DNA from: Candidatus Scatovivens sp.
GTDB taxonomy: Bacteria; Bacillota; Clostridia; TANB77; CAG-508
Direction: 5' to 3'
Length of the DNA stretch: 32,366 nt
Assembly: GCA_045630665.1 (NCBI GenBank)
Contig: JAZQTI010000035.1
Coordinates: forward strand, 1 to 32,366
Shown piece by piece: positions 3,809-25,985 of the stretch. Positions within the stretch are counted from its first letter, which is position 1. Every line of letters begins with the position of its first letter. The notes beneath the pieces were generated by a model. The model had not been told where the DNA came from. It did not search any database and saw only the letters and a list, made by a program, of their open reading frames with translations. The position numbers and the translations under genes are program-made.

Positions 3809-4282
3809 TTATTTTAAGTGAAAAAACTTTATGCCTGCTTTTTCTTCCATTAATTTTAAATAAATATATTTTTGAATACCCATATAATATTTTGACGCTT
3901 CTTTTTCAAAATATTCATAATCTTCTTCATATAGATTTATTTTTATTGTTTTAGTTCTTCTTTTCTTTATTATTCCTTTATTTGTTGGATATTTATATTT
4001 AGGATAATATTTACCATTATATACTGTATTATAACCAATATCATTTTTATAAGACATATATTTACCAATGTAATAATTTTCTATTTCGTCAGCAATTTCT
4101 TCATCAACATTATCTTCTAATATTATATGTTCTACATTTTCCCAACCATATTTTTGTACTGCATCTTTCATTGCTTTTTGGTCATAACAATTTCCATTTT
4201 TCCATCTTTTTTCACAATTTGATGTTTGGCCTATATAAATTTTCCCATTAGGAAATTTGTGCATATATATATATTTTTTCAT
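3809..4282 (-). CDS. GIY-YIG endonuclease with C-terminal RHH-like domain
   Basis: YIY...KIYIGQT...RW and a later E fit the GIY-YIG catalytic pattern. The C-terminal TIKINLYEEDYEYFEKEASKYYMGIQKYI is RHH-like. Confidence 0.8.
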   Translation of the reverse strand: MKKYIYMHKFPNGKIYIGQTSNCEKRWKNGNCYDQKAMKDAVQKYGWENVEHIILEDNVDEEIADEIENYYIGKYMSYKNDIGYNTVYNGKYYPKYKYPTNKGIIKKRRTKTIKINLYEEDYEYFEKEASKYYMGIQKYIYLKLMEEKAGIKFFHLK

Positions 4283-5719: not shown

Positions 5720-6631
5720 TTAATCAGTTGTTTTTGTATATTCTATTGTGCAACGGCAAGGTTTATTATCATATCCTTTTCCAAATAACGAAACAGTATG
5801 TTCAACAGTACTATATTGTATTAATGAATAAAAATTTGAATTTGCATAAGCACCAATTTGATGCCAACCATTTGCATAACTAACTACTCCATAAGCATTC
5901 GTTAGCATTTCAATATTTGTATCTGTTAAGAGTGTAGTGTTAGTATTTGCTCCTAAAATATTTAAAAGTGTGCGTCTATATAAAGGTTTACCGTCAATCC
6001 AAATCCCTATTCTCTTTTCGATTGTTGAATATACATCTATATTTTCATATTCTTTATGTTCTACATAATCAGTAGCAGTATTACCTTTTTCCATTTGTAA
6101 TTTGCATTTGTAATTATCAAGAGTAGTTCCATTAGGTATTCTTAAAATATTTAATGTAATTGAAATATCAGCATTAAAACTATTAGTAAATGAAGTATTA
6201 TTTTCATTAAGTAATAAAGTAAAACCTTGATAATTATAATTTGCGTCTTGTAAATATATTGTACAATTTTCTGTTGTACTACCACTTACATAAGTGCTTG
6301 AAAATGTATATTGTGTACCACTTTTAAATTTCATTTTATTAAATGGTGCTAAATTAATATCAGTTCGTGCTGTTGCTGTACCATTAATTGTTAATTCATT
6401 TGTGCTTATATCATAAGTTGCAGTTATTCCATTTGATGTAGTTGTTGCAAATGTACTCATATCAACCATATTTTTCCCTGTTAATCCATCAACAATAATA
6501 TCTCCCATTGCTTTGTTACCTAACAACATATCATTATTATCTTTTATACCTGTTTCAATATTGTTTAAATTACTTGCTGTAGTAGGAGTATTTGTACTAG
6601 GCAAATTCTCCCAATTTGTTTTTACATACAT
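5720..6631 (-). CDS. Tail fibre / receptor-binding protein
   Basis: N-terminal KTNWENLPSTNTP..A.NLN.IE.GI, GKN...QMEKG.TATDY carbohydrate-binding-like module, YST.E.RIG.WIDGKPLYR and C-terminal IEYTKTTD; last tail gene. Confidence 0.75.
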   Translation of the reverse strand: MYVKTNWENLPSTNTPTTASNLNNIETGIKDNNDMLLGNKAMGDIIVDGLTGKNMVDMSTFATTTSNGITATYDISTNELTINGTATARTDINLAPFNKMKFKSGTQYTFSSTYVSGSTTENCTIYLQDANYNYQGFTLLLNENNTSFTNSFNADISITLNILRIPNGTTLDNYKCKLQMEKGNTATDYVEHKEYENIDVYSTIEKRIGIWIDGKPLYRRTLLNILGANTNTTLLTDTNIEMLTNAYGVVSYANGWHQIGAYANSNFYSLIQYSTVEHTVSLFGKGYDNKPCRCTIEYTKTTD

Positions 6632-7329
6632 AATTTTTCCTCCTTTAATGTATAATTAAGTTTTGCACTTTTTTGTAAATTATCTTGTGCTTTTAATAAT
6701 TGTAAATTAGAATAATGGCATAATTTTATTACATCCTCTTCAGTTTTTGCAGTTGCTAGAGGAATAATATGGTCAATATGAACAGGTTCTTTTTTGTCCC
6801 ATTCATAGCCATAATTATTTTTAAAAGTATCTAACAAATAAGAATAAAAGTAATCAAATGAACAACCAAGAATATCTTTTGTTTTACACATTTTCCTATA
6901 ACCTTTCTTTTGAAAACAAACTCTAATATTTGTTCTTATTTGTTTTTTTATTTTAAATAAATTGTCCGAGTGAAACCTTATATTTTCTCTTTTACTTATA
7001 TTTTTTCTATTTTTTTTATTTCTTAATCTTGCTTTCATATTTAATTCTTCTTTGTTAAGTTCTCTATTTATTTTTCTTCTTTTTTGTATATCATTTTTAT
7101 TTTTTTGATAATAAGAACTCATTTTGTTTAAGATTTCTTCTCTATGCTTTTTGTAATAATTATTTCTTATTGTTTTTTCTATTTGCTTATGTTCTTTTAT
7201 ATACTCATAACGATACTTTTTTTCACATTCTTTACAAGTATGTCTATAATGTCCATTATCTTTTCTAACTCTAAATTCTTCTAAAGGTTTCTCTAATAAA
7301 CATTTTTTACATACTTTACTATAAGCCAT
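6622..7329 (-). CDS. HNH homing endonuclease with N-terminal CxxC...CxxC zinc finger
   Basis: CKKC...CKEC; HIDHIIP...HYSNLQLL...N..KS. Confidence 0.85.
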   Translation of the reverse strand: MAYSKVCKKCLLEKPLEEFRVRKDNGHYRHTCKECEKKYRYEYIKEHKQIEKTIRNNYYKKHREEILNKMSSYYQKNKNDIQKRRKINRELNKEELNMKARLRNKKNRKNISKRENIRFHSDNLFKIKKQIRTNIRVCFQKKGYRKMCKTKDILGCSFDYFYSYLLDTFKNNYGYEWDKKEPVHIDHIIPLATAKTEEDVIKLCHYSNLQLLKAQDNLQKSAKLNYTLKEEKLCM

Positions 7330-18971: not shown

Positions 18972-19445
18972 TTATCTCATACTTCTTTGTAATGTTTCAT
19001 TAAGCATTTGTTTCTTTTGTGGTGTATCTGCTTCCTCATGTAAGAAATCTAAATATTCTCCTAATGCTTTTGCCATGAAATGAAATGCTTTATCAGATTC
19101 TTCTCCTGCTCCGTATCTTTCTCTTGATTCCATATATCTACCATATTCGTTAGACATTCTGTCCATGTAATCATCACCACGATATCTCATATCACGTCCT
19201 CTAGCACCATAGTTTCCTCTGCCATAGTTTCCATAATCCCCATAGTTATCACGCCCATAGCTATCATATCCAGGACGTCTTGCACCATAGTTTCCATAAT
19301 TTCCGTAATTCATATTTTCTTCCTCCTTTGCTATATGATTTATTTTAGTTAGTTTATACAAATGATCTAGATTGTTGGTAGTTATACCTTCGTCTAGTAT
19401 CTTATTTATACTTTCTTCGGTTTTCTTTTCTAACTTCTCGTGCAT
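18972..19445 (-). CDS. Hypothetical protein with central YG/RG low-complexity repeats
   Basis: YGNYGNYGARRPGYDSYGRDNYGDYGNYGRGNYGARGR between helical ends; RBS AAGGAGG. Confidence 0.85.
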   Translation of the reverse strand: MHEKLEKKTEESINKILDEGITTNNLDHLYKLTKINHIAKEEENMNYGNYGNYGARRPGYDSYGRDNYGDYGNYGRGNYGARGRDMRYRGDDYMDRMSNEYGRYMESRERYGAGEESDKAFHFMAKALGEYLDFLHEEADTPQKKQMLNETLQRSMR

Positions 19446-19447
19446 TG

Positions 19448-19627
19448 TTATTCCTCCTTTCTTAAAAGGGTTAATATTTCATCATTTTGCTTGATTATCT
19501 TTTCTAAATAATTACTATCTTGCTTTTGTAACTCTTGCATTAAATCCCTGTTGTTATAGTCTTGTAATAATAAAATAACGCTATACAATTGCAAGATTAA
19601 TGATGTCATATCTAAATTATTTCTCAT
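19448..19627 (-). CDS. Hypothetical 59-aa protein (not in ORF track)
   Basis: MRNNLDMTSLILQLYSVILLLQDYNNRDLMQELQKQDSNYLEKIIKQNDEILTLLRKEE; the start overlaps the upstream stop (TAATG). Confidence 0.75.
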   Translation of the reverse strand: MRNNLDMTSLILQLYSVILLLQDYNNRDLMQELQKQDSNYLEKIIKQNDEILTLLRKEE

Positions 19628-20088
19628 TAAATTCTTGAAATACTAAATGTAGCATTAGTTATAATTGCTTGTGTAGTTGCTATTGGTGTTGTAGGGTCAG
19701 TTGGTGTAGGTACACTTGGAACACTTTGAACTGATATATTAGTAGTTCCACGAGGGCATACTCTTAATTTCTTATCAAATGAAATAGTTTCATAATCATC
19801 GGCAGCTGCAATAGTTACGGCTCTAACTGTATCAGGTATTAGCACTCCATCTTGGAATAGCCCTATTGCTACTACACCAGCAGTCGCAGTACTCACTGAA
19901 GCACTAAATTCTACATCATAATAACCTGTGTATCCATTTCCAAATATTTTAAAATTAGGATTACCATTTGAATAATCTAACCAACCACAACAAGATGCAC
20001 ATCTAGTTCTAACAGTTGTTTCATCAAAAGTTATTGGACTTGCATTACTTGGTAATGCTAATGGTTCATTTATAATTGTTTCTATCAT
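19627..20088 (-). CDS. Beta-sandwich protein, BclA-CTD/C1q-like
   Basis: ITFD, GYYDVEFSASV, VAIGLFQDG..IP, NATFSISRI; Cys cluster CASCCG. True start is ATG 20088 (RBS GAAAGGAG), not 20214. Confidence 0.65.
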   Translation of the reverse strand: MIETIINEPLALPSNASPITFDETTVRTRCASCCGWLDYSNGNPNFKIFGNGYTGYYDVEFSASVSTATAGVVAIGLFQDGVLIPDTVRAVTIAAADDYETISFDKKLRVCPRGTTNISVQSVPSVPTPTDPTTPIATTQAIITNATFSISRI

Positions 20089-20146
20089 TTTTGTTTCTCC
20101 TTTCAATAATTTTGCACAATATTTTAAATATTTTGTGCATTTTTTA

Positions 20147-20179
20147 AAATAAAAGAGAATAGAACTATGCCTATTCTCT
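20147..20179 (-). terminator. Intrinsic terminator after the Gly/Cys-rich gene
   Basis: AGAGAATAG/CTATTCTCT stem followed by TTTATTTT. Confidence 0.7.
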
Positions 20180-20254
20180 ATGCTACCGACATTTGTGTCG
20201 GTACCTGTTAGCAAGTTCTCGTATTCGAGTTAGTTGTATTCAACTTCTATGCTA

Positions 20255-21133
20255 TTAAATAAATTGACTTGTTGTGTTAAATCCACATCCACATCCATTA
20301 TTTCCAGGGCATGTGAAAATTCTTTGATTTCCATAGACTGGTATTGTATTTATTGGGCATGTGGCTAGGCGATTATACAAAGCGTCAACTTCATTGTTTA
20401 ACCCTTGTGCAATAAATGCGTTTTGTGCAGTTTGTGAAGCTTTTAAATCAGCCATTTCAAGTTGTCTTTGTAAATCAGCAATCTTTTCGTTTTTAGCATC
20501 AATTTTGTCATTGCATAATTGGTCTAAAATACGTTGAGTGTTAGCAGTTTGGTTGATTAATACATCTTTTAAACCATCAGCTAATGCTGCTCTATCAGCA
20601 CAATTTTCGCTTAAGATAGTGCTGTTTAAATTAGCAATACCTAAACGATTTTCACAGCAACAGTCAGCGAATTGTCTACTTAATGCAAATGTGTCTTGCA
20701 TTTGGTTCATAGCTCTATTATTAGCGCTTATTTCGCTATTATAGAAGCCATTTGAAATTGCACTTGTTATGTCGCTTGTGCTATTACATATTTGGTTAGA
20801 TAATCCATAAATGCCATCTCTAGCACCTTCTAATTGGTTAGATAAATGTAATGTGTCAAATCCGTTGTTAGTGTTAGTCATAATGTCTTTTTGACCATTT
20901 GAAAGCCAAGCATATCCATTATCAAAACTATTATTACCAAAGAAACCACCATTGCCATTATTTCCCCAACCACCGAATAATGCTAATAATAAGATTACCC
21001 AAATAAAGTCGCTTCCATAACCACCAAAACCATTACCATATCCACCCATCATCATTGGGTATACTGGATAAGCATTGTTATTAGTTGCTAGGTCAACAGT
21101 TGGAACTATTCCTGAGTTTCCGTTCATTTTCAT
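20255..21133 (-). CDS. Gly-rich, one-TM, CCC-motif coiled-coil protein of unknown function
   Basis: GGYGNGFGG-FIWVILLLALFGGWG, ADCCCENR, ILDQLCNDKI coiled coil, C-terminal GCGCG. Start is 21133 or 21127. Confidence 0.85.
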   Translation of the reverse strand: MKMNGNSGIVPTVDLATNNNAYPVYPMMMGGYGNGFGGYGSDFIWVILLLALFGGWGNNGNGGFFGNNSFDNGYAWLSNGQKDIMTNTNNGFDTLHLSNQLEGARDGIYGLSNQICNSTSDITSAISNGFYNSEISANNRAMNQMQDTFALSRQFADCCCENRLGIANLNSTILSENCADRAALADGLKDVLINQTANTQRILDQLCNDKIDAKNEKIADLQRQLEMADLKASQTAQNAFIAQGLNNEVDALYNRLATCPINTIPVYGNQRIFTCPGNNGCGCGFNTTSQFI

Positions 21134-21219: not shown

Positions 21220-21465
21220 TTATTTTTGAGTATTTTGCTTGTTAAACATTCCCATCATTTGTTCCCATTGTTGTCTTTGTTGTGGGTTAAAACCATTTAT
21301 TGTTTCATTTAATAAATCATTTGGGTTGTTATTCTTTCTTGCCTCTTGATATTTTTTGAAAGCCTGTGGATTTTGTGCTTTCAATTGTTTCTCTAATTGG
21401 TTCATCATATTTTGTGGTATTTGTTGTATTTTGTTCTGCATTAACATTTGGATCATTTGCATCAT
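21220..21465 (-). CDS. Small Q/N/M-rich helical protein
   Basis: NPQ...NP repeats; RBS AAAGGA. Confidence 0.75.
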   Translation of the reverse strand: MMQMIQMLMQNKIQQIPQNMMNQLEKQLKAQNPQAFKKYQEARKNNNPNDLLNETINGFNPQQRQQWEQMMGMFNKQNTQK

Positions 21466-21850
21466 TTTTAATCATTCCTTTCAATTCTTCTATTTGCGTT
21501 TGTAAATATTCAATTTGTAAATCTTTTGCGTCTTTTGGTATTATTTCACTTAATTCGTAAGTTTTTATTTCACCTTTTGTATTTTTAATCCATACTACTG
21601 ACATATCTTTGCTAAAATATGGTGTATCACCAACAACCATGTCTCTTTGTACTTCATCAATTGAATTTGCGTATTTTATTACATCACGATTAGTAGGTGC
21701 TAATTGAAAATTTTGTGTTAAGTTGGTAGGTTGTTGTACAGGTGGTTGTTGCATTTGATTTCTCATTTTTTCTAGTTCTGCAATTTGGTTATTTATTCTA
21801 TCTATATTAACTTGTGCATTATATGGATTCATAAATTGATTGTTATACAT
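21329..21850 (-). CDS. Hypothetical protein, Q/P/N-rich N-terminus
   Basis: RBS AGGAGG; globular-looking core PYFSKDMSVVWIKNTKGEIKTY. Confidence 0.8.
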   Translation of the reverse strand: MYNNQFMNPYNAQVNIDRINNQIAELEKMRNQMQQPPVQQPTNLTQNFQLAPTNRDVIKYANSIDEVQRDMVVGDTPYFSKDMSVVWIKNTKGEIKTYELSEIIPKDAKDLQIEYLQTQIEELKGMIKNDANDPNVNAEQNTTNTTKYDEPIRETIESTKSTGFQKISRGKKE

Positions 21851-22008: not shown

Positions 22009-22035
22009 AAAAAAAGAACTCTAATTGAGTTCTTT
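22009..22035 (-). terminator. Terminator at the end of the AgrB-like gene
   Basis: AAAGAACTC-AATTA-GAGTTCTTT followed by TTTT. Confidence 0.75.
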
Positions 22036-23232
22036 AATTTTATTATTTATTCTATCTTTTATCTTTTTAATACCTGCTTCAGTATAGTTGTATTTAATAC
22101 TTAAACTTATAGCATTTTTCTTTTTAACAAAATATTCATAACATATTTTGTATTTTATACTATCTTTATCAACTACTTTTAAAATTGTTTCTTCAAACAA
22201 TTCTTCAGGCATTCCTCTATAAAGTGGTTTATACGCTTTCTTTACTAATTTAGATGTAATATAAGATAAACCGACACCTAGCATAATTGGAATGAATATA
22301 CTTATTCCTAATGGAGTAGTAATTCTATTTAAAGTGTAGTAGGTTAAGTTTGAAACAATAAAACATTGTGCCATGCTAGATAAGTGAAATGCTTTGCCGA
22401 ATGTTCGTTTGGTTAGCCAAAATGAAGTTAGTATAAATAAGCATTCTATCAAAGTGTGATTTAATTTTGCTACAAGTAAAATTAACACAACACTTAAAGT
22501 ATTCCAAATTAGACTTAATATAAAATAAATAATATAAGTTAATTTTGTAATTTTATCTAATTTTCTAAAATTACGCAATTTTTCTTGCAATTTTGTTAGC
22601 AATTTCTTTAAGTTTATCTTCTTTAGCAAATAAGAAAATGCTTCCTCCACCTGGTAACATATTTCTCCTCCTCTCAAAAAATACAATTTATATAATATAA
22701 TAATCATAATTAGAAAATCTAAGTTCATTAATAATGATATTGAAAAATTATAACCATTTGAATTTAAACTTTGACTTCTAACTATCATTGATATAAATTG
22801 ACAAAATACTATAAATAAAGTTAATTTCGTAAACTTCTTAATTTGTATTTTTTTAGTTTTAATAAAGTATATTATAATAGTTAATATATAGTCGCTAAAT
22901 ATATGCATTAAAGGATTATTTATTATTGTTTTTAAATATTGAAATATTACTATTAATGGAAACCACATAAAAGTATACAATTTTATTTCTTTATCATTTT
23001 TATTGCACATTATAGAAATGACAATATAAAAATTAATAAAACAATTAATATAAGAAATGATAATGTCTAATTTAAAAACTTTACAAAAATCATTAATTTG
23101 CAAAATTGTAGGATTATTAATATCCAAACCAAAATAATCTAATCCTACTATCTTCATTATAAACACACATACTAATACAAAAAGATACACTCTTAAACTT
23201 GCCGACAAATATTTGTCATAATCTTTAAACAT
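22021..23232 (-). CDS. Polytopic membrane protein: sensor-like TM domain + AgrB-like protease domain + C-terminal HTH
   Basis: About 6 N-terminal TM segments; KRTFGKAFHLSSMAQCFIVS (R-x6-H-x6-C); C-terminal YEYFVKKKNAISLSIKYNYTEAGIKKIKDRI (sigma-4-like HTH). Start is ATG 23232 with RBS GAGGAGGTGA. Confidence 0.75.
   Translation of the reverse strand: MFKDYDKYLSASLRVYLFVLVCVFIMKIVGLDYFGLDINNPTILQINDFCKVFKLDIIISYINCFINFYIVISIMCNKNDKEIKLYTFMWFPLIVIFQYLKTIINNPLMHIFSDYILTIIIYFIKTKKIQIKKFTKLTLFIVFCQFISMIVRSQSLNSNGYNFSISLLMNLDFLIMIIILYKLYFLRGGEICYQVEEAFSYLLKKINLKKLLTKLQEKLRNFRKLDKITKLTYIIYFILSLIWNTLSVVLILLVAKLNHTLIECLFILTSFWLTKRTFGKAFHLSSMAQCFIVSNLTYYTLNRITTPLGISIFIPIMLGVGLSYITSKLVKKAYKPLYRGMPEELFEETILKVVDKDSIKYKICYEYFVKKKNAISLSIKYNYTEAGIKKIKDRINNKIKELN
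22571..22660 (-). CDS. Nested AgrD-like propeptide (29 aa), out of frame inside the AgrB-like gene
   Basis: MLPGGGSIFLFAKEDKLKEIANKIARKIA*; RBS AGGAGG 6 nt before ATG. Confidence 0.55.
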   Translation of the reverse strand: MLPGGGSIFLFAKEDKLKEIANKIARKIA

Positions 23233-23299
23233 TTTTCTCACCTCCTCAATAAAATGAAAAAAGATACCTCGCTAGTATCTTTTTCCACCCCTTGTATTA

Positions 23300-23328
23300 A
23301 TTATACATTTTTAATTTGTACAAGTCAA
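23300..23328 (-). promoter_or_regulatory. SigA promoter of the AgrB-like gene
   Basis: TTGACT (23323-23328)-17 bp-TATAAT (23300-23305). Confidence 0.7.
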
Positions 23329-25087: not shown

Positions 25088-25565
25088 GATACACGACCGA
25101 AGTCGTAGTATCTCTGGTCTAAAGACATCATTGTCGAACCATTAAACCAGTGCTATTTTATAAGCACTGTACCAAATTCAAGTATATTCATCTTTCCAAC
25201 TAGTATTGTATACTTGTAATTCAGTACACTACCTATAAAAGATAGTGATAAAATAAATAGACTAATCACATTACTCGTTATACCTTCAACATTCTAAGCA
25301 CCACTGTATAACAATACGGTAGGAAGGTGGCTTTCTTCCTCGTGATATTTACCATTTTCACTATTTATTTTAGTTACCAAATAGATATTTACTAGCACCA
25401 CTAGATACACTAGGCATTGGGTTTTATATCTCCATATCTATTTGCATTAATTAATAGTGCCTATTATAAGCACCATTGAATAGATATTTTCGCCTAACTC
25501 CAAATGAAGTGCATTTTACAAGGGCTTATTGTAATATATCTACTCAATGCTGATTATAAATCAGC
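25088..25565 (-). ncRNA. Candidate large structured non-coding RNA
   Basis: About ten abutting stems, a C(UUCG)G hairpin, and mismatches that resolve as G-U only on the minus strand; no ORF of 60 aa or more in the track. Confidence 0.6.
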
Positions 25566-25896
25566 CTCTATTTTTTAATTGTTCTTTATATGTTGCCCAT
25601 CTTAAATTAGAAACATTATTATTTATCTTATTTCTATCAATATGGTCAACTGTTGGTTTGTTTTCAGGATTATCAATAAACAATTCTGCAACCAATCTAT
25701 GTATAGCATAATATTTAACCTTACCATTATTATATAAAGGTAATCTATAATAGCCTTTATTTGATAGTGTTGGCTTTTTAATGGTTTCTACACATTTTCT
25801 TTTTTGCATCATTCTTGATAAACTTTTAACTCTACCAAGATTACTTACTTGATATAACCCCTCATAATTTGGTATGTCTTTCCATACTTCTTCCAT
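25561..25896 (-). CDS. NUMOD4-HNH endonuclease
   Basis: EVWKDIPNYEGLYQVSNLGRVKS; IHRLVA..FI.NP...VDHIDRNKINNNVSNLRW. Start is ATG 25896. Confidence 0.9.
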   Translation of the reverse strand: MEEVWKDIPNYEGLYQVSNLGRVKSLSRMMQKRKCVETIKKPTLSNKGYYRLPLYNNGKVKYYAIHRLVAELFIDNPENKPTVDHIDRNKINNNVSNLRWATYKEQLKNRG

Positions 25897-25899
25897 ACA

Positions 25900-25985
25900 T
25901 AACACCTCCCGAATAAGTGTTAAGGGAAGTAATTCGGGTACTTCCCCACAATTTAATTATATCACTTCTTTTTCTTTTTTGTCAA
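25900..25985 (-). promoter_or_regulatory. Promoter and two-hairpin leader of the HNH gene
   Basis: TTGACA-18 bp-TATAAT with extended TG; two hairpins with complementary 7-nt loops. Confidence 0.7.

What the first reader, a model, noticed from the sequence alone, without database searches (positions are those of the whole stretch)
22571..22675. Hidden AgrD-like peptide gene nested out of frame at the domain junction of the AgrB-like gene
Seen: the codons for L-R-G-G-E in the large ORF form a strong SD (AGGAGG, 6 nt spacing) before an alternate-frame ATG at 22660. This gives MLPGGGSIFLFAKEDKLKEIANKIARKIA*, exactly in the linker between the sensor-like and AgrB-like domains. Established: AgrD cores are typically Cys/Ser plus four mostly hydrophobic residues cyclised as a (thio)lactone and followed by a charged tail, and Ser lactones exist (E. 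faecalis GBAP, S. intermedius-group AIPs). Inference: S-I-F-L-F is the ring and AKEDK the recognition tail. The usual N-terminal amphipathic leader is missing and may be replaced by the C-terminal amphipathic helix (LKEIANKIARKIA). Nesting would genetically lock signal, processing enzyme and receptor together, and annotation pipelines would miss the gene.
Basis: partly seen in the sequence, partly recalled or inferred. Interest (0 to 1): 0.9.

Follow-up and report, generated by a model that had tools for sequence, protein, structure and literature searches.

The report
Conserved peptide gene nested in phage AgrB-like gene
A 29-codon gene hidden out of frame inside a phage membrane-protein gene is real and conserved in every relative examined, and it probably encodes the precursor of a small ring-shaped signalling peptide cut by the enzyme domain of the very gene that contains it.

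Summary
On the minus strand, AGGAGG, 6 nt and ATG (22660) open a 29-codon ORF in the +2 frame of a 403-aa gene (22021-23232).

The nested ORF is present in all 103 homologous loci that span the site (91 unique DNA sequences, large protein down to about 36-40% identity). It has a start codon (90 ATG, 1 GTG) and an SD-type core in 89 of 91.

In the overlap, variation follows the nested frame (3rd > 1st > 2nd codon position). Elsewhere it follows the large frame. So this is a real overlapping gene.

The peptide is M-x(2-13)-[S/T]-x3-F-[A/G]-x-[E/T]-D... plus a basic amphipathic helix. It matches no AgrD model and has no leader and no PxxP.

The host protein has a variable multi-helix membrane domain, an AgrB-like core with invariant His and Cys seven residues apart, and a sigma-70-region-4-like HTH. 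The unit has its own promoter and terminator inside a siphovirus-like late-gene region.

The peptide's "mature" part travels with the variable membrane domain. Its tail travels with the AgrB-HTH backbone.

Best reading (about 0.55): a leaderless AgrD-like precursor cyclised to a Ser/Thr lactone. Cyclisation, secretion and sensing are untested.

The parts
22571..22660 (-). Nested ORF (29 codons plus TAA) in the +2 frame of the large gene: MLPGGGSIFLFAKEDKLKEIANKIARKIA
   Evidence: Conserved in 103 of 103 loci spanning the site. Codon periodicity follows the nested frame.
22667..22672 (-). Shine-Dalgarno AGGAGG, 6 nt upstream of the nested ATG. Read in the large frame it is part of R-G-G.
   Evidence: GGAGG census. 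An SD core lies 6-11 nt upstream of the start in 89 of 91 unique loci.
22631..22645 (-). Codons for S-I-F-L-F, the putative 5-residue ring: Ser nucleophile and C-terminal Phe. The proposed cleavage site is after Phe.
   Evidence: Motif [S81/T10]-x3-F(91/91)-[A79/G11/S1]. F is invariant and S is at 90% or more in the position-only alignment A2. The ring itself is an inference.
22574..22630 (-). Codons for the tail AKEDKLKEIANKIARKIA: acidic patch, then a basic amphipathic helix. Proposed recognition or membrane-association element.
   Evidence: The tail co-varies with the AgrB-HTH backbone (r 0.50-0.64).
22021..23232 (-). Large gene, 403 aa from ATG 23232 (MFKDY...). The ORF listing starts it at GTG 23241.
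   Evidence: GGAGG, 8 nt, then ATG. 956 proteins at E<=0.001 among 8000 scored candidates; the 120 listed are 394-433 aa.
22687..23109 (-). Hypervariable membrane region (residues 45-185, about 5 predicted helices). This is the proposed specificity or sensor module.
   Evidence: Helices. Mean pairwise distance 0.65-0.78, uncorrelated with the backbone but correlated with the mature part of the peptide.
22231..22605 (-). AgrB-like peptidase core (residues 213-337) with His286 (22384-22386) and Cys293 (22363-22365).
   Evidence: Pfam PF04647 at E 3.4e-7, 30.3 bits against a cut-off of 23, profile positions 3-108 of 185. H and C are invariant in A1 and A4. hhalign places them on the FH...C motif of phage CDMH1 AgrB.
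22024..22221 (-). C-terminal helix-turn-helix domain (residues 341-406), sigma-70 region 4 / KorA-like.
   Evidence: pLDDT 80-91. VIA-align Z 8.5, rmsd 2.4 over 65 residues to KorA, and many sigma region-4 chains at Z 6.3-8.2. Foldseek. Atlas clusters carrying AgrB plus Sigma70_r4.
23300..23328 (-). Promoter-like site TTGACT-17-TATAAT (11 of 12) in the gap upstream of the large gene.
   Evidence: 29 of 42 homologues have a site scoring 10/12 or better upstream (13 perfect), against 5 of 42 control windows.
22013..22035 (-). Terminator-like hairpin plus T-run overlapping the stop codon of the large gene.
   Evidence: 13 of the 14 homologue folds printed show a similar hairpin followed by a T-run.

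Best explanation
Shown: a real, separately translated overlapping gene lies in the +2 frame of the linker-coding DNA of a phage gene. It forms one promoter-to-terminator unit (a 'moron') inside a siphovirus-like late-gene region.

Inferred: its 26-38-aa product is a leaderless, AgrD-like precursor. The AgrB-like Cys/His peptidase core of the surrounding protein would cut after the invariant Phe (F|A/G). It would then resolve the acyl-enzyme with the Ser/Thr hydroxyl four residues upstream. The product would be a 5-residue macrolactone with a short variable N-terminal extension, for this window (M)LPGGG-cyclo(SIFLF). The conserved acidic-then-basic amphipathic tail would be the recognition and membrane-docking element that is discarded.

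More speculative: the hypervariable membrane domain, which is swapped together with the mature part of the peptide, is the specificity partner (receptor or exporter). The cytoplasmic sigma-region-4-like HTH would be the output. Signal, maturase, specificity domain and DNA-binding domain would then sit in one transcription unit.
For: Gene reality:
- The ORF, start codon and SD are found in 103 of 103 loci that span the site. There are 90 ATG and 1 GTG starts, and an SD core in 89 of 91 unique loci.
- Per-position entropy in the overlap is large-frame pos2 1.13, pos3 0.95, pos1 0.68. Everywhere else it is pos3 > pos1 > pos2.
- Single-difference codon pairs by nested-frame position: 3rd 15297, 1st 10118, 2nd 2506. 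The synonymous fraction is 0.46 for the nested frame and 0.33 for the large frame in the overlap. In the AgrB core control it is 0.71 (large frame) and 0.04 (+2 frame).
- The peptide is more conserved than the large-frame reading of the same bases in 74.5% of 4095 pairs.
- At the nested start, the large frame reads mostly Cys or Trp (TGx of the ATG) in the printed alignment, and K-G-G/E/D/V at the SD.
- An alternate-frame stop lies 1 codon or less upstream of the start in 32 of 91 loci, which excludes entry by frameshift from upstream.
- 21 clusters of 29-83-aa proteins with the same motif already exist in a 1.84-billion-protein library.

AgrD-like role:
- The peptide is nested in a gene whose AgrB match exceeds Pfam's cut-off.
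- His and Cys seven residues apart are invariant. They align to the R-x-F-x-G-x-F-H-x6-C stretch of phage CDMH1 AgrB. C84 and H77 are the S. aureus catalytic residues (PMC10196373, passages).
- [S/T]-x3-F-[A/G] is followed by acidic residues. AgrD needs acidic residues just after its cleavage site.
- Ser lactone pheromones exist: GBAP has a Ser3-Met11 link (PMC7028047, passages). The annotated CDMH1 AgrD also has a Ser, not a Cys, in ...SVWYINQP....

Modularity:
- The tail tracks the backbone (r 0.50-0.64) and the mature part tracks the variable domain (r 0.34-0.38, with no decay over distance).
- L067 and L049 share 98% of the variable domain and an identical mature part on backbones 36% apart. 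L072, L004 and L008 have backbones 3-4% apart, variable domains 70-78% apart and different mature parts.

Own promoter and terminator.
Against: - There is no sequence homology to AgrD. 0 of 53 peptides hit AgrD in Pfam, there is no NCBIfam hit, and hhalign against a phage AgrD gives nothing.
- There is no 24-25-aa amphipathic leader. Only 2-13 residues precede the Ser/Thr.
- There is no P-x-x-P motif, which the CDMH1 paper calls characteristic.
- The tail is net basic and longer than AgrD's 14-15 residues.
- The ring residues are fairly conserved hydrophobics rather than hypervariable.
- The AgrB match covers only profile positions 3-108 of 185, and the hhalign alignment to a real AgrB is weak (E 0.033).
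- No AgrC/AgrA pair is encoded beside the gene.
- The co-variation can be produced by physical linkage plus recombination within the conserved tail-coding DNA.
- The invariance of the motif in the combined set of 91 is partly built in, because my scripts required it. and alignment A2 did not.
- Nothing here shows translation, cleavage, cyclisation or export.
Confidence: 0.55

Rival explanations
1. The nested gene is real, but its product is not cyclised. It would be a small amphipathic protein acting as such. One option is a regulatory partner of the large protein, for example a helix that docks on the sigma-region-4-like HTH (anti-sigma style) or on the AgrB-like core. Another is a membrane-active peptide, for example one that tunes lysis or excludes other phages.
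For: The longest conserved part is the basic amphipathic helix. The tail co-varies most strongly with the HTH (r 0.64) and with the AgrB core (0.60). A few peptides give weak, non-significant Pfam hits to cationic antimicrobial peptide families: Cupiennin 2 of 53 and frog antimicrobial peptide 1 of 53, with best E-values 0.32 and 0.038. There is no AgrD homology, leader or PxxP.
Against: This does not explain the invariant Phe followed by Ala/Gly exactly four residues after a Ser/Thr that is present in all peptides. It also does not explain why the gene sits in an AgrB-like gene with an intact His/Cys pair. The N-terminal part of the peptide is swapped together with the variable membrane domain, which suggests that this part has a partner of its own.
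Confidence: 0.3
2. The alternate frame is not an independent gene. It would be read only by a programmed frameshift from the large frame, giving an N-domain plus 29-aa tail. Or the conservation would reflect an RNA or DNA element, or an internal SD that serves only to regulate translation of the downstream AgrB-HTH part.
For: Both frames are open, so a shifted product is formally possible. The SD is strongly conserved and could pause or load ribosomes.
Against: Variation follows the codon positions of the nested frame with conservative amino-acid replacements, so the peptide sequence itself is under selection. The start codon is kept in 91 of 91 unique loci. In 32 of 91 an alternate-frame stop sits within one codon upstream of the start, so no shift from upstream could reach it.
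Confidence: 0.05
3. It is a chance ORF in AT-rich DNA with a fortuitous SD-like run.
For: In a single sequence, an open stretch of this length is only in the top few per cent (95th percentile 26 codons). The alternate frame stays open in 21% of synonymous resamplings.
Against: The ORF is present in 103 of 103 loci, with a conserved start, SD, stop position and peptide, in large proteins down to about 36-40% identity.
Confidence: 0.01

Closest known systems
agrB/agrD of staphylococci and clostridia (AgrB peptidase plus AgrD autoinducing-peptide precursor)
   Same: A membrane Cys/His peptidase domain (Pfam AgrB over its cut-off; His and Cys seven residues apart). A small peptide is encoded at the same locus, with a nucleophile plus four residues and then acidic residues (AgrD facts from PMC10196373 passages).
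   Different: The peptide gene lies inside the enzyme gene and out of frame. There is no leader, no PxxP and no HMM match. The nucleophile is Ser/Thr rather than Cys. The tail is a basic amphipathic helix. The AgrB part covers only about the first 108 of 185 profile positions and is fused to an upstream multi-helix membrane domain and a downstream HTH. No AgrC/AgrA is adjacent.
fsrB/fsrD of Enterococcus faecalis (GBAP lactone pheromone)
   Same: A small precursor ORF that was long hidden in the AgrB-homologue gene. The product is a Ser lactone (PMC7028047 passages).
   Different: [quoted passage not shown] Here the ORF is out of frame, upstream of the AgrB-like core, and fully overlapped by coding sequence on both sides. 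GBAP has a 9-residue ring (Ser3-Met11), while 5 residues are proposed here.
agr3 cassette of Clostridium phage CDMH1 (agrC-agrB-agrD)
   Same: An agr-type locus carried by a phage. The annotated AgrD has Ser in the ring position (PMC3901668 passages).
   Different: In CDMH1 there are three separate genes next to the lysis and lysogeny modules, with a histidine kinase and a canonical AgrD with leader and PxxP. Here there is one gene plus a nested ORF and no kinase. Sequence similarity is marginal (hhalign E 0.033).
Embedded phage gene pairs such as lambda Rz/Rz1
   Same: A small gene lies wholly inside a larger one in another frame, and the two products work together.
   Different: Those are spanin subunits for lysis. 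There is no peptidase or HTH, and no sign of signalling.
Arbitrium (AimP/AimR) phage peptide communication
   Same: It would be a phage-encoded short peptide signal coupled to a phage-encoded DNA-binding regulator, if the speculative part holds.
   Different: AimP is a secreted linear peptide with a signal sequence, matured by host proteases and sensed in the cytoplasm by a soluble TPR receptor. There is no AgrB-like enzyme and no overlap.

Membership tests
AgrB (Pfam PF04647) | Match to the family HMM above the curated cut-off | tested here: met
   30.3 bits against a cut-off of 23, E 3.4e-7, residues 213-324. Many homologues carry a precomputed PF04647 hit. It is the only match over the cut-off in the host assembly.
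AgrB (Pfam PF04647) | Catalytic His and Cys seven residues apart (H77/C84 in S. aureus; PMC10196373 passages) | tested here: met
   H286 and C293 are invariant in 31 and 60 sequences. In 124 sequences H is invariant and C is at 90% or more. They align to FH-x6-C of phage CDMH1 AgrB, although that hhalign match is weak (E 0.033). Catalysis itself was not tested.
AgrB (Pfam PF04647) | Full-length AgrB architecture (whole 185-position profile) | tested here: not met
   Only profile positions 3-108 are matched. The rest is replaced by a cytoplasmic HTH domain.
AgrD (autoinducing-peptide precursor) | Match to AgrD family models | tested here: not met
   0 of 53 nested peptides hit AgrD in Pfam at E<=10. 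There are no NCBIfam hits for 4 peptides. hhalign against phage CDMH1 AgrD aligned one column.
AgrD (autoinducing-peptide precursor) | N-terminal amphipathic leader of about 24-25 residues | tested here: not met
   Between Met and the ring Ser/Thr there are 2-7 residues in 89 of 91 loci and 13 in the other 2.
AgrD (autoinducing-peptide precursor) | Cys or Ser followed by four residues forming the (thio)lactone ring | tested here: inconclusive
   The sequence pattern is present: S81/T10, then x3, then F in 91 of 91, and F invariant in the position-only alignment A2. The ring chemistry cannot be tested here.
AgrD (autoinducing-peptide precursor) | Charged C-terminal tail with acidic residues next to the cleavage site, and P-x-x-P in clostridial types | tested here: inconclusive
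   E/T at +3 and mostly D at +4 after the Phe. However, the tail is net basic, about 18-22 residues long and helical, and no PxxP is seen in the peptides listed.
AgrD (autoinducing-peptide precursor) | Encoded beside its AgrB | tested here: met
   It is nested in the AgrB-like gene in 103 of 103 loci.
Sigma-70 region 4 / KorA-type HTH | Three-helix DNA-binding fold | tested here: inconclusive
   VIA-align Z 8.5 (rmsd 2.4, 65 of 65 residues of KorA) and many sigma region-4 chains at Z 6.3-8.2. Foldseek prob about 1 but E about 0.8. Pfam Mga HTH at E 0.021, under its cut-off. Atlas neighbour clusters carry Sigma70_r4 in 12% and 29% of members. The tool notes that Z around 8 is near its background.
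Overlapping (overprinted) protein-coding gene | Conserved open frame, start and RBS, with codon-position variation following the second frame | tested here: met

The most novel reading that the evidence does not exclude
This is a complete phage 'pherotype' system packed into one promoter-to-terminator unit. The nested ORF would give a leaderless Ser/Thr-lactone autoinducer. The AgrB-like core of the enclosing protein would mature it. The hypervariable membrane domain of the same protein would be its receptor, and the fused sigma-region-4-like HTH would be the transcriptional output. The variable domain and the mature part of the peptide are exchanged between phages as one cassette. This would create specificity groups like staphylococcal agr groups (recalled), which rumen and gut phages or prophages could use to tell kin from non-kin.
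Probability: 0.25. Interest if true: 0.95.

Novelty: new variant of a known kind. Interest (0 to 1): 0.85.

Why it matters
This is a clean, comparatively proven case of a functional gene hidden out of frame inside another bacterial-virus gene. Standard annotation misses this class.

If the peptide is an AgrB substrate, three things follow:
- AIP-type signalling extends to a large family of uncultured rumen and gut phages of Bacilli.
- An AgrD can work without a leader.
- Signal, maturase, a co-varying membrane domain and a DNA-binding domain are fused in a single transcription unit.

The system is small enough to test in a heterologous host. It also gives genome miners a rule: look inside 'orphan' AgrB-like genes, in other frames, for the missing precursor.

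Tried and rejected
- **Phage records (INPHARED):** blastn and tblastn with the gene found no match. The AgrB-HTH part found none even at E<=10.
- **PDB sequence search** with profile A1: no match.
- **PHROGs:** nothing significant for the large protein or the peptide.
- **Complex prediction** (large protein alignment plus peptide alignment): 'no answer', score 0.00, controls not run. This counts neither for nor against binding.
- **Sequencing runs:** no RNA holder listed. Read laying was not used, because contigs of DNA runs cannot show translation or transcript ends.
- **Search for a stand-alone (non-nested) version of the peptide gene:**
  - The search for related loci with the peptide alignment failed because no conserved stretch was long enough.
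  - P0210, P0161 and P0255 as queries in viral contigs gave no confirmed locus.
  - A back-translated F-G-P-T-D-H-L-M-K pattern gave nothing in viral or metagenome contigs.
  - A profile search of 400 genomes of the host's class found the family only in the window's own genome.
  - Shorter database proteins look like truncated gene calls. Whether split forms exist therefore stays open.
- **CDMH1 gp38** ('sigma factor') against the C-terminal domain: no similarity.
- **N-terminal domain:** only weak matches to helical membrane folds (Z about 6). I do not claim a sensor fold.
- **Host assembly:** it holds one LytTR and three HATPase_c_5 matches on different contigs. I did not test whether any is an AgrCA-like receptor.
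- **Literature:** six searches listed no paper describing an out-of-frame or nested agrD, or an AgrB-HTH fusion. In one search none of the 10 listed papers contains 'AgrB'. The library lacks most subscription journals, and no supplements were consulted.
Full report
**What is in the sequence.** The feature is on the minus strand. The large ORF (22021-23241 from GTG; more likely 403 aa from ATG 23232, which follows GGAGG by 8 nt and gives MFKDY... like its homologues) reads ...L-R-G-G-E-I-C-Y.... The codons for R-G-G spell AGGAGG (22672-22667). Six bases later comes ATG (22660), in the +2 frame. It opens 29 codons, MLPGGGSIFLFAKEDKLKEIANKIARKIA, ending in TAA.

**Is it more than chance?** In this sequence alone, only weakly.
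- Alternate-frame open stretches in 56 homologous genes have a median of 4 codons and a 95th percentile of 26.
- With the large protein held fixed and synonymous codons resampled, the span stays open in 21% of trials on average.
- The SD is more telling. GGAGG occurs 25 times on the coding strand and once on the other. 22 of the 25 precede a start codon by 4-12 nt, and only 5 lie inside ORFs of 100 aa or more.

**Comparative evidence.** The large protein belongs to a big family. 956 proteins had E<=0.001 among 8000 scored candidates, and the 120 listed are 394-433 aa. I fetched DNA for homologues from viral contigs (42 loci), species-representative genomes (18 loci, mostly rumen or gut 'Bacilli bacterium' MAGs by their titles) and metagenome contigs (61 loci).
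- In the first two sets, a search by position only (an ATG in the +2 frame near the aligned KGG, open for at least 20 codons) found the nested ORF in 58 of 58 sequences that cover the site. Three loci (L026, L029, L043) do not reach it.
- In the metagenome set, 43 were found by a motif rule and 2 more by inspection: L082 with a GTG start, and L103 with a 13-residue N-terminal extension. The other 16 do not span the site.
- Together this is 103 of 103 loci, 91 unique local DNA sequences and 87 unique peptides. The large proteins reach down to about 36-40% identity to the window's.
- Starts are 90 ATG and 1 GTG. Stops are 73 TAA and 18 TAG. Lengths are 26-38 aa. An SD core (GGAGG 51, AGGAG 34, AGGA 3, GGAG 1) lies 6-11 nt upstream in 89 of 91.
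- Elsewhere in 56 of these genes there are only 19 alternate-frame ATG ORFs of 26 codons or more, scattered and without an SD.
- A few loci have the large frame interrupted elsewhere while the nested ORF is intact: L023/L085, L042 and L114.

**Which frame is under selection?**
- Across 56 unique genes, per-position entropy follows pos3 > pos1 > pos2 in every part of the large gene. The exception is residues 194-223, where it is pos2 1.13 > pos3 0.95 > pos1 0.68. That is the 3rd > 1st > 2nd order of the nested frame.
- In 4095 pairs, codons differing at one base differ at nested-frame position 3 in 15297 cases, position 1 in 10118 and position 2 in 2506.
- The synonymous share is 0.46 in the nested frame and 0.33 in the large frame. 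In a control stretch in the AgrB core it is 0.71 (large frame) and 0.04 (+2 frame).
- The peptide is more conserved than the large-frame translation of the same bases in 74.5% of pairs.
- Two details show the same thing directly. At the nested start, the large frame reads mostly Cys or Trp, unrelated residues that share the TG of ATG. At the SD it reads K-G followed by G, E, D or V (AAAGGAG...).
- In the AF2 model the large-frame residues 190-209 have pLDDT under 50. That fits a linker free to carry a second message.
- In 32 of 91 loci an alternate-frame stop lies within one codon upstream of the start, so a frameshift from upstream cannot feed this frame.

I conclude that this is a real, independently initiated overlapping gene (about 0.93).

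**The peptide.** In the position-only alignment A2 (53 unique peptides), Phe12 is invariant, Ser8 and Ala13 are at 90% or more, and the rest of the tail is well conserved. Anchored on the motif, the 91 unique sequences read as follows:
- [S81/T10]-[W/F/L/I]-[F/L/I]-[I/F/L/W]-F(91)-[A79/G11/S1]-x-[E60/T29]-[D55...]-[K/F]-[L/I];
- then a heptad-like ..A-x-K-[I/V]-[A/S]-x-K.. helix.
This invariance is partly imposed by my motif rule for the second set.

Between Met and Ser/Thr there are 2-7 residues (13 in two loci), and Gly usually precedes the Ser. The same motif occurs in 21 clusters of small proteins in a 1.84-billion-protein library, including a ...F-G-P-T-D-H-L... subgroup. So some gene callers have met it, but without a name.

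It matches no AgrD model. 0 of 53 peptides match in Pfam, there is no NCBIfam hit, and hhalign against phage CDMH1 AgrD finds nothing.

**The enclosing protein.**
- Pfam AgrB matches residues 213-324 at E 3.4e-7 and 30.3 bits (cut-off 23), but only profile positions 3-108 of 185.
- His286 and Cys293 are invariant. hhalign lays S-K-R-x-F-G-K-A-F-H-L-S-S-M-x-Q-C on S-I-R-Q-F-S-G-G-F-H-A-R-S-N-R-L-C of the annotated AgrB of phage CDMH1. The match is weak (E 0.033).
- In S. aureus AgrB, C84 is the active-site Cys, and R70, G75 and H77 are needed (PMC10196373, passages read).
- The AF2 model (mean pLDDT 66.7) shows about seven helices before the linker, four in the AgrB-like part and a confident C-terminal domain.
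- That domain (341-406) superposes on KorA (Z 8.5, rmsd 2.4, 65 residues) and on many sigma-70 region-4 domains (Z 6.3-8.2; Foldseek). The tool warns that Z about 8 is near its background.
- Pfam gives only Mga HTH at E 0.021.
- ESM Atlas neighbours include viral clusters of 187-205 aa with AgrB plus Sigma70_r4 on 12% and 29% of members (a lead only).
- One database protein joins a response-regulator receiver domain to this same C-terminal domain (P0187, from a 665-base contig).
- If, as modelled for AgrB, both ends are cytoplasmic, then the linker and the HTH are cytoplasmic. This is an inference.

**Context.**
- The window is a whole 32-kb contig of a 72%-complete, 1.5-Mb assembly. All large ORFs are on one strand.
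- Gene order by PHROGs is small and large terminase, portal, minor head protein, then a block of small unknown genes that holds this gene. After that come major head, tape measure, tail, endolysin, homing endonucleases and a Sak4/exonuclease/SSB module. No integrase was seen in the window.
- The downstream neighbours are conserved next to the gene in 21-35 of the 60 loci searched.
- The gene has a promoter-like site TTGACT-17-TATAAT in the 87-bp gap upstream and a hairpin plus T-run over its stop codon.
- In homologues, 29 of 42 have a site scoring 10/12 or better upstream (13 perfect), against 5 of 42 control windows. 13 of 14 printed 3' ends fold into such a hairpin.
- It therefore looks like an autonomous 'moron' unit. 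Expression from a prophage is an inference.
- The host assembly has no other AgrB match over the cut-off. It has one LytTR and three HATPase_c_5 matches on separate contigs.

**Mosaic structure.** This analysis used 66 unique full-length genes.
- Residues 4-44, the AgrB core and the HTH share one history (r 0.57-0.84). Residues 45-185 are hypervariable (mean distance 0.65-0.78) and uncorrelated with that backbone (r -0.07 to 0.26).
- The peptide tail follows the backbone (r 0.50-0.64). This includes the distant residues 4-44 (0.57), but not the nearby variable domain (0.18-0.20).
- The mature part follows the variable domain equally over its three thirds (0.38, 0.34, 0.38). It follows the backbone less (0.18-0.30). 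Partial Mantel values are 0.43 and 0.66, p 0.001.
- Examples:
  - L072, L004 and L008 have backbones 3-4% apart, variable domains 70-78% apart and different mature parts.
  - L067 and L049 have variable domains 2% apart, backbones 36% apart, an identical mature part and different tails.
- This is what a ligand-specificity cassette would look like. It recalls the hypervariable agr region of staphylococci (recalled, not checked here). However, linkage plus recombination in the conserved tail-coding DNA would give the same picture, so it is support and not proof.

**Mechanism.** Most likely (0.55), the nested peptide is the substrate of the AgrB-like core. Cleavage after the invariant Phe and attack by the Ser/Thr hydroxyl would give a five-residue lactone with a short variable N-terminal extension. 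The amphipathic tail would provide recognition and membrane docking, and would stand in for the missing leader.

Steps shown: gene reality, the motif, the His/Cys pair and the modular co-variation. Steps inferred: cleavage, cyclisation, export, sensing and the HTH output.

The main rival (0.30) keeps the gene but makes the peptide a linear amphipathic partner or membrane-active factor. A frameshift or purely regulatory element (0.05) and chance (0.01) are poorly compatible with the data.

**Comparison and novelty.** The closest systems are these:
- agrBD;
- the agr3 cassette of phage CDMH1 (PMC3901668, passages).

This case differs in several ways. The ORF is out of frame and fully nested. It lacks the leader and PxxP. 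The AgrB core is truncated and fused to a variable membrane domain and an HTH. It sits as a single unit among phage structural genes.

By sequence it is not a member of the AgrD family. It may work like one. Six literature searches listed nothing describing such an arrangement, within the limits of that library. I rate it a new variant of a known kind, with high interest.

Noticed in passing
window 21220-21850 (-): ORFs of 173 aa (21329-21850) and 81 aa (21220-21465) overlap by 137 nt in different frames. tblastn finds both in many related loci (30 and 21 of 60). The 81-aa ORF has no GGAGG before its first ATG. This could be a second dual-coding stretch, a programmed frameshift or a later true start.
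   Followed up: partly
window 18972-19445 (-): The 157-aa ORF has a strong SD at its start (GGAGG at 19457). A second GGAGG at 19326 lies 8 nt before an in-frame ATG that would give a 113-aa product. This suggests two in-frame isoforms.
   Followed up: no
protein P0187, from a 665-base contig: A response-regulator receiver domain (PF00072) is joined to the same C-terminal HTH domain as in this family (72% identical over that part). If it is not an assembly chimera, the domain is used as a DNA-binding output elsewhere.
   Followed up: no
window 19627-21133 (-): Two conserved neighbours of unknown function: a 292-aa Gly/Asn/Cys-rich protein (phrog_16490, found in 35 of 60 loci) and a 195-aa protein (phrog_20016, found in 33 of 60). 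They travel with the AgrB-like gene.
   Followed up: partly
window 3809-4282, 6622-7329, 25561-25905 (-): Searches point to three endonuclease genes in one 32-kb phage contig. The 3809-4282 ORF matches homing-endonuclease families, including one with a GIY-YIG motif. The 6622-7329 ORF matches endonuclease VII. I recognised the 114-aa ORF at 25561-25905 by eye as HNH/NUMOD-like; it was not searched.
   Followed up: partly
whole window: All ORFs of 100 aa or more that look like genes lie on the minus strand. GGAGG is 25-fold more frequent on that strand (25 against 1), so it marks gene starts almost exclusively.
   Followed up: yes
L023/L085, L042, L114: In these related loci the large frame is interrupted away from the nested ORF, while the nested ORF stays intact. 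The cause may be sequencing errors or decaying copies.
   Followed up: no
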